Shown: positions 55,579-56,414 of the stretch, one piece after another
Layout: every line of letters begins with the position of its first letter
Position numbering within the stretch: position 1 is the first letter of the stretch
Sequence record: MH791411.1
From: Escherichia phage Ecwhy_1
Reading direction: 5' to 3' (one strand)
DNA length: 64,000 nt
Notes under the pieces: generated by a model
Database searches by the model: none
Told to the model about the DNA's origin: nothing
The model's input: the letters and a program-made list of their open reading frames with translations, nothing else
Made by a program: the position numbers and the translations under genes

Positions 55579-56385
55579 TTATCCGATAATCATTCCAAGT
55601 GGGTCACCACCATCTTTGTATCTCTTCAACTGTTCTTTAAGCTGTTCTTGAAGTTGTGCACCTTCATTACGTAATGTATCACCATCCATAGAGAATGTAC
55701 CCTGTGGTCCAGGCAATGTAGCAAATTTAGCACGGTTGCGACCCAACATAATCATAGCTTCAGACAATGCCCAGTCACGTAGCCAAGGATAGCTTTGTTG
55801 ACGTTGGAATAGCAATGGTTCAGGTATATTATGATATACATGTAATAGCACTTCTTCAGTACCGCGAATATCACGATCAATTATTAGTTTTTTGGTCATT
55901 GGGTTGAACTGGAAGATGATTTCTCTACCAAACATACGCCCAACTAATTCTTGGAATTGAAAACTAAAATCATAAGTAGTTAAGTCATAACCACCAGCGT
56001 TACGTGCAGACGTTAAAAGGTAAGTGTTGGTAAATGCGAGTGAAAAAGGGTCTACTGAGTTACCACTACCAGAACTTAGATAACCGTTACCATAACGATA
56101 AATCTGTTTGACAATTTCAACTTCAGTAGGAAGCATGTATACAGATTGTGAATCATAGAATTTCATGTTCAAGAATGCTTCTTCTTTTGAAGCAGAACTC
56201 CATGCTCGGTAGTTTGATACCGCATTATCAATTGCAATTTCCAATTGACCATCAGTAATTTCAACTTCAACTGCACCAGCACCTAACATTTGAGTGATAA
56301 CATCTTTCAGTTTTTCACGATGATCAAAGTTTGGAGCATCTGGGTTTCCACCCATATAATCGTAAGACATAAAAAAGCACCTCAT
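55579..56385 (-). CDS. Hypothetical protein (possibly tail/neck-associated)
   Basis: 268-aa ORF; the first ATG (56385) lies inside a hairpin and the second (56370) directly follows a U-tract, so the true start is uncertain. Confidence 0.5.
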   Translation of the reverse strand: MRCFFMSYDYMGGNPDAPNFDHREKLKDVITQMLGAGAVEVEITDGQLEIAIDNAVSNYRAWSSASKEEAFLNMKFYDSQSVYMLPTEVEIVKQIYRYGNGYLSSGSGNSVDPFSLAFTNTYLLTSARNAGGYDLTTYDFSFQFQELVGRMFGREIIFQFNPMTKKLIIDRDIRGTEEVLLHVYHNIPEPLLFQRQQSYPWLRDWALSEAMIMLGRNRAKFATLPGPQGTFSMDGDTLRNEGAQLQEQLKEQLKRYKDGGDPLGMIIG

Positions 56386-56414
56386 TAATGTTTATATACA
56401 TTATTTAGAGGTGC
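56371..56414 (-). promoter_or_regulatory. Hairpin plus U-tract abutting the start codon (terminator/attenuator)
   Basis: GCACCTC-24-nt AT-rich palindromic loop-GAGGTGC followed by UUUUUU and then immediately ATG (56370). Confidence 0.4.

What the first reader, a model, noticed from the sequence alone, without database searches (positions are those of the whole stretch)
56371..56414. Hairpin with U-tract directly abutting a start codon
A 7-bp GC stem with a 24-nt AT-rich palindromic loop is followed by UUUUUU and then immediately by the ATG at 56370, with no Shine-Dalgarno sequence. The alternative ATG at 56385 lies inside the stem. This could be a terminator-coupled or structure-regulated translation start.
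Basis: seen in the sequence. Interest (0 to 1): 0.35.

Follow-up and report, generated by a model that had tools for sequence, protein, structure and literature searches.

The report
Late promoter nested in RBS-masking hairpin
The hairpin in front of this jumbo phage's neck-protein gene hides the gene's ribosome-binding site in transcripts that read in from upstream genes. A T4-like late promoter inside the hairpin should produce shorter late transcripts in which that site is free. This is a known phage T4 trick, seen here in a new phage lineage.

Summary
The hairpin is real: minus strand, 8-bp stem 56415-56408/56383-56376, 24-nt loop with a 6-bp inner stem, a run of six T, then ATG at 56370. 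The claim of "no Shine-Dalgarno" is wrong, because the 3' arm is the Shine-Dalgarno sequence (SD; GAGGTG, 7 nt before the ATG).

The window is an Asteriusvirus-like jumbo coliphage (121Q/RaK2 group). The gene encodes the neck protein (T4 gp13-like adaptor).

In 20 distinct relatives from several genera, the SD core always pairs with CCYC. Five pairs show compensatory changes. The U-tract is not conserved.

CTAAATA directly follows the 5' arm (TATAAATA in some relatives). This is the group's predicted gp55-type late promoter. In this window the motif sits just upstream of structural genes (14 of 19 hits, p=2e-17).

A late transcript starting in the loop would lack the 5' arm. The predicted cost of opening the SD falls from 12.8 to about 2 kcal/mol.

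The tail-sheath gene has the same conserved layout. The design matches T4 genes e, soc and I-TevI.

Verdict: a new member of a known kind. A terminator role is possible here but secondary. No transcript ends have been mapped.

The parts
56408..56415 (-). 5' arm of the hairpin (AGCACCUC). It is the anti-SD strand and would be present only in transcripts that start upstream.
   Evidence: Fold. It pairs with the SD arm in all 20 distinct relatives, and five pairs show compensatory changes.
56402..56408 (-). CTAAATA, the predicted gp55-type (T4-like) late promoter box. Its first C is the last base of the 5' arm.
   Evidence: TAAATA is invariant in 24 aligned relatives and reads TATAAATA in the 7t3, L022-L024 and Vibrio clades. 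The homologous site in phage CBB is listed as late promoter Porf_201 (PMC5259590 Table S7). In the window, 14 of 19 [AC]TAAATA hits lie within about 60 nt upstream of a same-strand gene start (p=2e-17).
56393..56397 (-). Predicted late transcription start region, in the apical loop about 6 nt after the box.
   Evidence: Inference from the T4 rule that the start lies about 6 nt after TATAAATA (PMC3014915). It has not been mapped. Transcripts starting here have a free SD.
56386..56403 (-). Inner A/U-rich stem-loop (UAAUGU / hexaloop / ACAUUA) within the 24-nt loop.
   Evidence: It is weakly conserved, and loop length varies from 24 to 32 nt among relatives.
56376..56383 (-). 3' arm of the hairpin (GAGGUGCU). 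It contains the Shine-Dalgarno sequence GAGGUG (56383-56378).
   Evidence: Predicted cost of opening the SD is 12.8 kcal/mol in the read-through RNA and 1.9-2.0 kcal/mol in the predicted late RNA.
56371..56376 (-). T6 run. It is the SD-to-AUG spacer and, in this phage, a possible terminator U-tract.
   Evidence: It is not conserved as a U-tract in RaK2, Muenster, Hallingskeid or EJP2.
55579..56370 (-). Neck protein / head-tail adaptor Ad2 gene (T4 gp13-like), 263 aa, with its start codon at 56370-56368.
   Evidence: phrog_211, E=2e-42. Annotated in relatives as neck protein or Ad2. Conserved N-terminus.
55544..55574 (-). Canonical intrinsic terminator that closes the neck-gene unit.
   Evidence: 13-bp stem, 5-nt loop, T-run. 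Annotated by ARNold in phage G17. Sequence.
55527..55535 (-). Extended -10 sigma-70-like box (TGATATAAT). It would restart non-late transcription for the next ORF and the dNMP kinase gene.
   Evidence: Seen in the sequence. This is a consensus match only.
56421..56639 (-). Small upstream ORF (72 aa, TTG start) whose stop codon lies 5 nt before the hairpin. It is the last gene of the upstream non-structural unit.
   Evidence: Open in four lineages at 84-86% DNA identity. Annotated as gp547 in 121Q. Absent in Turkey5 and RaK2.
54485..54548 (-). Second copy of the same design, at the tail-sheath gene: AAAUCCUUCAA (54548-54538), ATAAATA (54538-54532), loop, UUUGGAGGAUUU (54496-54485), then ATG at 54481.
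   Evidence: SD opening cost 8.6 against 4.1 kcal/mol. Conserved in G17, RaK2, CBB, Munch and Hallingskeid.

Best explanation
The element is a composite switch that restricts neck-protein synthesis to late infection.

1. Transcripts that start at upstream non-late promoters run through the macro-domain, 125-aa and 72-aa genes on the same strand. They contain both arms of the hairpin.
2. In those RNAs the Shine-Dalgarno sequence GAGGUG is locked in an 8-bp helix, so ribosomes cannot start. In this phage some polymerases probably also stop at the following U-run.
3. Late in infection, host RNA polymerase carrying the phage's gp55-like sigma factor recognises CTAAATA, which lies directly after the 5' arm. 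It starts about 6 nt downstream, in the loop.
4. These late RNAs lack the 5' arm, so the SD and AUG are open and the neck protein is made.

Shown here: the hairpin, the SD inside it, conservation with covariation, the promoter-like box and its association with structural genes, the presence of a gp55-like sigma in the lineage, and the predicted energy difference.

Inferred: the position of the late start, the existence of read-through early RNA, and the actual effect on translation.
For: Structure:
- Hairpin stability has z = -3.8.

Conservation in 20 distinct homologous upstream regions from Asteriusvirus, Alcyoneusvirus, Mimasvirus, Eneladusvirus and unclassified or metagenomic relatives:
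- 85.8% of cells are paired.
- Five pairs show compensatory changes, in 23 cells. Examples are CCUC/GAGG to CCCC/GGGG, and GCAC/GUGC to GUAC/GUAC to AAC/GUU to AAU/AUU.
- 0 of 500 shuffles reach the observed covariation score. The score is 0.256, against 0.12 or less for slid controls.
- The four SD-core pairs form in every sequence.
- G-U pairs on the sense strand would be A-C mismatches on the other strand. That favours sense-strand RNA.

Promoter box:
- TAAATA is invariant next to the 5' arm. It reads as a perfect TATAAATA in three clades.
- In the window, 14 of 19 [AC]TAAATA hits lie just upstream of same-strand starts (binomial p=2e-17).
- The downstream genes are tail fibre, tail tube, sheath, neck and virion proteins.
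- The homologous CBB site was published as a predicted late promoter (PMC5259590).
- A gp55-family late sigma exists in the lineage: CBB_244 matches phrog_12791 and phrog_234. tblastn finds it at 75.6% identity in Escherichia phage BF17, a close relative of this window, and in 32 Escherichia records.

Energetics:
- SD opening cost is 12.8 kcal/mol in read-through RNA against 1.9-2.0 in RNAs starting at 56397-56393.
- That read-through cost is the second highest among 57 genes in the window.

Context:
- The neck gene is a self-contained unit between non-structural genes on the same strand. It has its own terminator, followed by a sigma-70-like box.
- The same layout occurs at the tail-sheath gene and is conserved across genera.
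- It also occurs at two further genes.

Precedent: T4 genes e, soc, 49 and I-TevI work exactly this way (PMC3014915; PMC2988022).
Against: - No transcript 5' or 3' ends are available for this phage or any close relative, so the start site is extrapolated from T4.
- The late promoter is a published prediction (MEME motif), not an experimentally verified one.
- As a class, genes behind the late motif are not significantly more SD-masked than other genes in the window (Mann-Whitney p=0.19). The design is gene-specific, not a general property of late promoters.
- The covariation alignment was anchored by my own rule on the CCYC/GRGG cores, which favours pairing at those four columns.
- A DNA palindrome would show the same covariation. 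Only the G-U pairs argue for RNA.
- In the PA5oct-like phage Deifobo the ATAAATA box is present but no SD-masking helix.
- The gp55-like gene is not inside this 64-kb window.
Confidence: 0.68

Rival explanations
1. The hairpin is simply the rho-independent terminator of the upstream gene cluster. Its closeness to the neck-gene start reflects tight packing, with no role in translation.
For: - A GC-rich 8-bp stem base is followed directly by U6 and lies 5 nt after the stop codon of the 72-aa ORF.
- E. coli-infecting relatives keep 6-7 U.
- Elsewhere in the window a canonical terminator directly precedes a late promoter box (50727-50704, then CTAAATA at 50695-50689). Termination in front of late genes is therefore a theme.
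Against: - The U-tract is lost in RaK2/Muenster (GCUAUAUG), Hallingskeid (GCUUAUG) and EJP2 (GCUUUAUG), yet the helix and its SD content are kept with compensatory changes.
- The 24-32-nt loop is atypical for a terminator. The simple scan did not call it. The ARNold-based annotation of G17 marks two other terminators nearby but not this one.
- The equivalent sheath-gene hairpin has no U-tract.
- This reading does not explain why the 3' arm is always the SD, or why TAAATA always follows the 5' arm.
Confidence: 0.15
2. The inverted repeat acts at the DNA level as an operator. A dimeric phage or host protein would bind it and control the late promoter it encloses.
For: - The arms flank the promoter box.
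- T4 I-TevI represses its own late promoter through an overlapping operator (PMC2988022).
- Covariation alone cannot tell a DNA palindrome from an RNA helix.
Against: - Arm sequences change freely as long as they stay complementary, whereas a protein site should keep its sequence.
- Spacing between the arms varies from 24 to 32 bp.
- G-T 'pairs' break DNA symmetry but are fine in RNA.
- One arm always coincides with the SD at a fixed 5-10 nt from the AUG. A DNA operator does not explain that.
Confidence: 0.05
3. The full hairpin is part of the mature late mRNA, with the late start upstream of 56415. It would serve as a 5' stabiliser, or as a constitutive damper that keeps neck-protein output low.
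For: - 5' hairpins stabilise phage mRNAs in general (established knowledge).
- The Vibrio phage relative has a second TATAAATA upstream of the 5' arm, which would give a hairpin-containing transcript.
Against: - In the window there is no second late box upstream within the 72-aa ORF region.
- A 12.8 kcal/mol SD mask would nearly silence a virion protein. That protein is detected in particles of relatives (CBB_201 is flagged as a structural protein in the CBB supplement).
- The invariant position of TAAATA inside the helix is left unexplained.
Confidence: 0.07
4. One reading: an SD-less start whose initiation is coupled to termination or re-initiation at the U-tract, possibly using the ATG at 56385.
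For: The U-run abuts the ATG.
Against: - A canonical SD (GAGGUG) is present at proper spacing.
- The upstream ATG is not conserved or not in frame in several relatives.
- The upstream ORF stops 50 nt before the ATG, so there is no stop-start overlap to support coupling.
Confidence: 0.02

Closest known systems
Phage T4 gene e (lysozyme), soc, 49 and I-TevI/segB/mobE: RBS-sequestering hairpins with an internal or adjacent late promoter (reviews PMC3014915 and PMC2988022)
   Same: - A late gene lies downstream of earlier genes on the same strand.
- The SD and/or AUG sits in a helix that forms only on long upstream-initiated transcripts.
- A TATAAATA-type late promoter is placed so that late transcripts lack the 5' strand of the helix.
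- Related phages keep the arrangement.
   Different: - The lineage is different: RaK2/121Q-type jumbo phages, only distantly related to T4.
- The promoter box is mostly CTAAATA or ATAAATA rather than TATAAATA.
- The regulated genes are core virion genes (neck, tail sheath), not lysozyme, a decoration protein or homing endonucleases.
- In this phage the helix is followed by a U-run, so it may also terminate.
- Nothing has been tested experimentally here.
Predicted late promoters of GAP32/CBB-type jumbo phages (ATAAATA motif; Buttimer et al. 2017, PMC5259590, Table S7)
   Same: The CTAAATA box at 56408-56402 is the positional homologue of CBB Porf_201 (CTAAATATGATATA), upstream of the CBB neck gene.
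   Different: In the passages and tables I read, that paper lists the motif only. I found no mention there of the enclosing helix, the SD masking or the covariation. A library search found no paper combining these phages with the hairpin terms.
Rho-independent (intrinsic) terminators
   Same: A GC-rich stem base is followed directly by a U-run, downstream of a stop codon.
   Different: - The loop is very long (24 nt) with an internal bulged helix.
- The U-run is not conserved in relatives.
- The 3' arm doubles as the SD of the next gene, and a promoter box sits inside.

Membership tests
T4-type RBS-sequestering hairpin with internal late promoter (e / soc / I-TevI class) | The SD and/or start codon lies inside an RNA helix. 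| tested here: met
   GAGGUG forms 6 of the 8 pairs of the 3' arm. P(unpaired) is 0.001 and the opening cost is 12.8 kcal/mol in read-through RNA. The helix is conserved with compensatory changes.
T4-type RBS-sequestering hairpin with internal late promoter (e / soc / I-TevI class) | A late promoter is placed so that late transcripts lack the 5' strand of the helix. | tested here: inconclusive
   The CTAAATA box starts at the last base of the 5' arm. Using T4 spacing, the start falls in the loop, and the predicted late RNA has a free SD (about 2 kcal/mol). The geometry holds in all relatives. The start site itself is not mapped.
T4-type RBS-sequestering hairpin with internal late promoter (e / soc / I-TevI class) | The gene is a late gene reached by early or middle transcripts from upstream genes on the same strand. 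| tested here: inconclusive
   The neck protein is a virion component. The upstream same-strand genes are non-structural: a phosphatase/macro-domain gene, a 125-aa ORF annotated in some relatives as a peptidyl-tRNA hydrolase, and small ORFs. Sigma-70-like boxes lie further upstream. The timing of transcription is not testable with these tools.
T4-type RBS-sequestering hairpin with internal late promoter (e / soc / I-TevI class) | Translation is repressed on long transcripts and relieved on late transcripts. | not testable with these tools
   This needs reporter fusions, toeprinting or time-resolved proteomics.
gp55-dependent (T4-type) late promoter | A TATAAATA-like -10 element with no -35 element. 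| tested here: met
   The window has CTAAATA (7 of 8 matches when read as TCTAAATA). The orthologous site reads exactly TATAAATA in the 7t3, L022-L024 and Vibrio clades. No conserved -35 was seen upstream, where the flanks are unalignable.
gp55-dependent (T4-type) late promoter | The motif is specifically associated with late (structural) genes. | tested here: met
   14 of 19 [AC]TAAATA hits lie just upstream of same-strand starts (p=2e-17). The downstream genes are tail, neck and virion proteins. TATAAATA occurs 0 times, against 7.0 expected.
gp55-dependent (T4-type) late promoter | The phage encodes a gp55-family sigma factor. | tested here: met
   CBB_244 matches phrog_12791 and phrog_234 (late sigma) and cyanophage gp55 genes. 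Homologues occur in 32 Escherichia jumbo-phage records, including BF17 at 75.6% identity. This was tested in relatives, because the gene lies outside this 64-kb window. Homologues of gp33 and gp45 were reported missing in CBB (PMC5259590).
gp55-dependent (T4-type) late promoter | Transcription starts about 6 nt downstream of the box late in infection. | not testable with these tools
   No 5'-end data exist for this phage group in the searched literature.
Rho-independent terminator | A GC-rich stem is followed directly by a U-tract of at least 5 nt. | tested here: met
   8-bp stem with 5 G-C pairs, followed by U6.
Rho-independent terminator | A compact hairpin with a short loop (3-8 nt). | tested here: not met
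   The loop is 24 nt with an inner helix. The scan did not call it, and G17's ARNold annotation does not mark it.
Rho-independent terminator | The U-tract is conserved with the hairpin in relatives. | tested here: not met
   RaK2/Muenster, Hallingskeid and EJP2 keep the hairpin but have only 0-3 U after it.

The most novel reading that the evidence does not exclude
The neck-gene element would be one instance of a lineage-wide 'insulator' grammar in RaK2/121Q-type jumbo phages. In it, an anti-SD strand fused to the upstream edge of a gp55-type late promoter, the SD strand downstream and, in some phages, a terminator U-run are nested in one roughly 45-nt module. The module would let core virion genes (neck, tail sheath, at least one other structural protein) sit between early or middle genes on the same strand without being expressed early. 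In the coliphages the same module would be trifunctional: terminator, promoter and translational mask. That nesting has not, to my knowledge, been described for T4.
Probability: 0.35. Interest if true: 0.45.

Novelty: new member of a known kind. Interest (0 to 1): 0.3.

Why it matters
- It corrects the reading of this site. The gene has a normal SD, and the hairpin is a timing device, not an oddity of initiation.
- It suggests that the T4 rule 'mask the ribosome site on early read-through RNA and unmask it by starting late RNA inside the hairpin' also operates in a large, poorly studied group of jumbo phages, on core virion genes. It is conserved there with covariation across several genera.
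- It helps annotation. Several GenBank records start the neck gene at the wrong ATG, inside the hairpin.
- It matters for engineering these phages and for interpreting future transcriptomes. It also gives a compact, testable promoter/RBS-mask module.
- It does not reveal a new mechanism.

Tried and rejected
- Rfam scan of 54400-58300 at E<=1 found nothing.
- Pfam on the neck protein, the flanking small ORFs and the CBB sigma gave no hits. PHROGs did give hits.
- A single-protein search of IMG/VR returned only 121Q. An alignment query was needed to get more loci.
- The plain MAFFT alignment of the upstream regions mis-registers the arms in the TATAAATA clade and in L038. I therefore re-anchored the arms on the CCYC/GRGG cores. 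This is a caveat for the four core columns.
- Hypothesis that all late promoters carry an SD mask: rejected. The difference in SD opening cost between read-through and late RNA is no larger for late-motif genes than for the rest (Mann-Whitney p=0.19). Only 3 of the 13 late-motif genes show a difference of about 5 kcal/mol or more. One further structural gene, behind a GTAAATA box, does too.
- Hypothesis that CCYC upstream of TAAATA is an extended promoter element: rejected. The other late boxes in the window lack it.
- The 'divergent RpoD-like' middle promoter of CBB (TGAAA...TATAAT) is not enriched in the window: 1 hit against 0.98 expected.
- Sigma-70-like promoter counts are no higher than in shuffles: 58 against 58.9.
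- Literature: the RaK2 genome paper has no promoter analysis. The PA5oct omics paper gives only sigma-70-like promoters. A search found no paper that combines these phages with the hairpin terms.
- The PA5oct-like phage Deifobo lacks the SD-masking helix, so the design is not universal in the wider clade.
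Full report
**What the window is.** The region 55000-58000 is 99.6% identical to Escherichia phage Turkey3. 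It is 85-97% identical to 121Q, PBECO4, G17 and other Asteriusvirus jumbo phages of about 350 kb. Genes around the finding lie on the minus strand. The ORF that starts at 56370 encodes the neck protein / head-tail adaptor Ad2 (T4 gp13-like). It matches phrog_211 at E=2e-42 and is annotated that way in relatives.

**Checking the observation.** On the minus strand the sequence reads AGCACCUC-UAAAUAAUGUAUAUAAACAUUAAU-GAGGUGCU-UUUUU-AUG.
- RNAfold gives an 8-bp outer stem (56415-56408 with 56383-56376; 5 G-C pairs).
- The 24-nt loop holds a 6-bp inner stem and a hexaloop.
- MFE is -18.7 kcal/mol. Dinucleotide shuffles give -9.0 +/- 2.5 (z = -3.8; 0 of 200 shuffles as stable).
- A run of six T (56376-56371) abuts ATG 56370.

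So the structure, its coordinates and the abutting ATG are confirmed. The statement that there is no Shine-Dalgarno sequence (SD) is wrong. GAGGUG (56383-56378) is a 6-nt SD, 7 nt from the ATG, and it is the 3' arm of the stem.

The alternative ATG at 56385 is not the start codon:
- It is absent in phage A4.
- It is out of frame in TH47, which has 7 T.
- It is missing in Hallingskeid, GAP32, Yen9 and 7t3.
- The N-terminus M(S)Y(D/N)Y is conserved from the 56370-equivalent ATG in every relative.

121Q and RaK2 GenBank records nevertheless annotate the upstream ATG.

**Conservation.**
- BLASTN of the upstream region shows that distant relatives lose similarity exactly at the 5' edge of the hairpin. 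Query positions 285-290 correspond to 56416-56411.
- I collected the neck-gene upstream region from 16 GenBank phages and 19 IMG/VR contigs.
- Every one has a helix whose 3' arm is the SD and whose 5' arm is directly followed by TAAATA.
- The arm sequences differ: GCACCUC/GAGGUGC, UACCCC/GGGGUA, GCACCCCUAU/AUAGGGGUGC, GUACCCCUAUA/UAUAGGGGUAC, AACCCCUAUA/UAUAGGGGUU, AAUCCUCUAAA/UUUAGAGGAUU and GCAUCUCU/AGAGGUGC.

I anchored the arms on the CCYC and GRGG cores and counted 12 pairs in 20 distinct sequences:
- 85.8% of cells are paired.
- Five pairs show compensatory changes, in 23 cells.
- The covariation score is 0.256, against 0.120 +/- 0.017 in shuffles (0 of 500 reach it). With the partner slid by 1-3 columns it is 0.12 or less.
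- The four SD-core pairs form in all sequences.
- Several pairs are G-U on the sense strand. On the antisense strand, or as a DNA palindrome, these would be A-C or asymmetric. That favours a sense-strand RNA helix.

Caveat: my anchoring rule favours pairing in the four core columns. The compensatory changes in the flanking columns are not affected by it.

The U-run is not conserved. RaK2 and Muenster have GCUAUAUG, and there the stem extends to cover the A of the AUG. Hallingskeid has GCUUAUG and EJP2 has GCUUUAUG. Selection therefore acts on SD pairing, not on a terminator.

**The box inside.** TAAATA is invariant in the MAFFT alignment of 24 sequences.
- It reads CTAAATA in the window (56408-56402).
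- It reads TATAAATA, the exact T4 late-promoter consensus, in 7t3/PHA46, in L022-L024 and in Vibrio phage 2.275.O.
- The CBB genome paper predicted a late promoter ATAAATA upstream of structural genes and noted a gp55-like sigma (CBB_244) (PMC5259590).
- Its Table S7 lists Porf_201 = CTAAATATGATATA, which is the homologous site in front of the CBB neck gene.

In this window:
- [AC]TAAATA occurs 19 times on both strands. Of these, 14 lie within about 60 nt upstream of a same-strand gene start. Such positions make up 3.3% of the strand-specific sequence (binomial p=2e-17).
- The genes behind the motif include two tail-fibre genes, two tail-tube genes, a tail protein, the tail sheath, the neck and virion structural proteins. 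A few others have no structural annotation.
- TATAAATA occurs 0 times, against 7.0 expected. CTAAATA occurs 9 times, against 15.6 expected.

CBB_244 matches PHROG late-sigma families (phrog_12791, phrog_234). By tblastn it has homologues in 32 Escherichia jumbo-phage records, at 75.6% identity in BF17, a close relative of the window. Its C-terminal part matches cyanophage gp55 genes. The sigma gene itself lies outside the window.

**Mechanism.** In T4 the late start lies about 6 nt after the box (PMC3014915). Applied here, the start falls at about 56397-56393, in the apical loop.
- A read-through RNA (56470 to 56335) has SD P(unpaired) of 0.001 and an opening cost of 12.8 kcal/mol.
- RNAs starting at 56397-56393 have a cost of 1.9-2.0 kcal/mol.
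- The read-through value is the second highest among 57 genes in the window.
- The geometry holds in all relatives. The cores are 24-32 nt apart and the box ends 7-9 nt after the 5' core. A start about 6 nt later always lies after the 5' arm and before the SD arm.

Genomic context explains the need for the switch:
- Upstream on the same strand lie non-structural genes: a phosphatase/macro-domain gene, a 125-aa ORF that some relatives annotate as a peptidyl-tRNA hydrolase, and a 72-aa ORF.
- The neck gene ends with a canonical terminator (55574-55544).
- A TGATATAAT extended -10 box (55535-55527) then precedes a small ORF and the dNMP kinase gene.
- The tail-sheath gene follows.

The neck gene is thus a late unit embedded among non-late units on one strand. 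This is the situation of T4 soc and e (PMC3014915; PMC2988022).

**Generality.**
- The tail-sheath gene has the same layout: AAAUCCUUCAA (54548-54538), ATAAATA (54538-54532), loop, UUUGGAGGAUUU (54496-54485), then ATG 54481. Its SD opening cost is 8.6 against 4.1 kcal/mol.
- That layout is conserved as AAUCCUCCAAUAAAUA...UUGGAGGAUU in G17, RaK2, CBB, Munch and Hallingskeid. The only differences are C-to-U changes that make G-U pairs.
- Weaker or unverified copies precede the ORF starting at 58123 (CCCUAAAUA...AUUUGGGAG; 6.6 against 1.5 kcal/mol). Another precedes the virion structural protein gene at 13956, behind a GTAAATA box (14.2 against 3.4 kcal/mol).
- It is not a property of all late promoters. 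Across 13 late-motif genes and 44 other genes the difference in masking is not significant (p=0.19). Other late boxes have no CCYC upstream.
- At the neck gene the design extends to Xanthomonas phage XaC1 (59% amino-acid identity) and, more weakly, to Vibrio phage 2.275.O (45%). It does not extend to the PA5oct-like phage Deifobo (38%).

**Terminator question.**
- For: in this phage the stem base plus U6, sitting 5 nt after a stop codon, could terminate some early transcripts.
- Against: the loop is long, neither the simple scan nor G17's ARNold annotation calls it, and the U-run is not conserved.
- My reading: termination is a plausible secondary function in the coliphages (roughly 40%) but not the conserved one.

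**Comparison with known systems and novelty.**
- The element works like the T4 e/soc/49/I-TevI hairpins.
- Membership of that functional class is supported on structure, promoter placement and context.
- It is untested on transcript ends and translation.
- The late-promoter motif had been predicted for CBB and GAP32. I found no description of the enclosing SD-masking helix in this phage group.
- Rfam has no matching family.
- I classify it as a new member of a known kind, of modest interest.

Noticed in passing
window 54485-54548 (-): The tail-sheath gene has the same layout of anti-SD strand, ATAAATA box, loop and SD strand. It is conserved in five other genera or clades, differing only by changes that make G-U pairs.
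   Followed up: yes
window 13900-13958 (+): The virion structural protein gene (13956..15452, phrog_11591) is preceded by a two-part helix that buries its SD. The opening cost of 14.2 kcal/mol is the highest in the window. The helix encloses a GTAAATA box followed by AAGATATAC, which looks like another promoter-in-hairpin. Conservation in relatives was not checked.
   Followed up: partly
window 58123-58180 (-): CCCUAAAUA overlaps the stop codon of the upstream ORF and pairs with AUUUGGG of the SD region of an 80-aa ORF (phrog_15319, function unknown). Predicted SD opening cost is 6.6 against 1.5 kcal/mol.
   Followed up: partly
window 56421-56639 (-): A 72-aa TTG-start ORF lies between the 125-aa ORF at 56632-57009 and the hairpin. 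It has no PHROG or Pfam family. It is open in four lineages (16 synonymous and 16 non-synonymous codon differences against 121Q). It is absent in Turkey5, RaK2 and Muenster, where the upstream gene ends only 45-60 nt before the neck ATG. The indel boundary coincides with the 5' edge of the hairpin.
   Followed up: partly
window 40150-40200 (-): A CTAAATA box sits directly after the stop codon of 40200..41609. It is followed at once by a strong terminator-like hairpin (GAGAACGGAAAAUUCCGUUCUC plus a U-run). A promoter box followed by a terminator is unexplained.
   Followed up: no
window 23892-23911 and 28974-28993 (+): Two giant paralogous tail-fibre genes (1644 and 1899 aa, phrog_4549) carry nearly identical 20-nt promoter boxes (CTAAATATATGTATATTAAC and CTAAATATAAGTATATTAAC) and similar N-terminal coding sequence.
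   Followed up: no
whole window: The exact T4 consensus TATAAATA occurs 0 times, against 7.0 expected from shuffles. CTAAATA occurs 9 times, against 15.6 expected. This is consistent with selection against stray late-promoter boxes.
   Followed up: partly
L003 (121Q) 613-630; L007 (RaK2) 533-547: GenBank records of 121Q and RaK2 start the neck CDS at an upstream in-frame ATG (MRCFF... and MRCY...) that lies inside the hairpin and is not conserved. This is probably a mis-annotated start.
   Followed up: yes
window 50689-50727 (-): In front of a tail-tube gene, a canonical terminator (10-bp stem, U7) is followed 8 nt later by CTAAATA. Here the terminator and late promoter lie in series rather than nested.
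   Followed up: no
window 55527-55535 (-) and 57847-57870: An extended -10 box (TGATATAAT) lies right after the neck-gene terminator. A perfectly palindromic hairpin at 57847-57870 is called as a terminator on both strands and lies directly upstream of the phosphatase/macro-domain gene.
   Followed up: no
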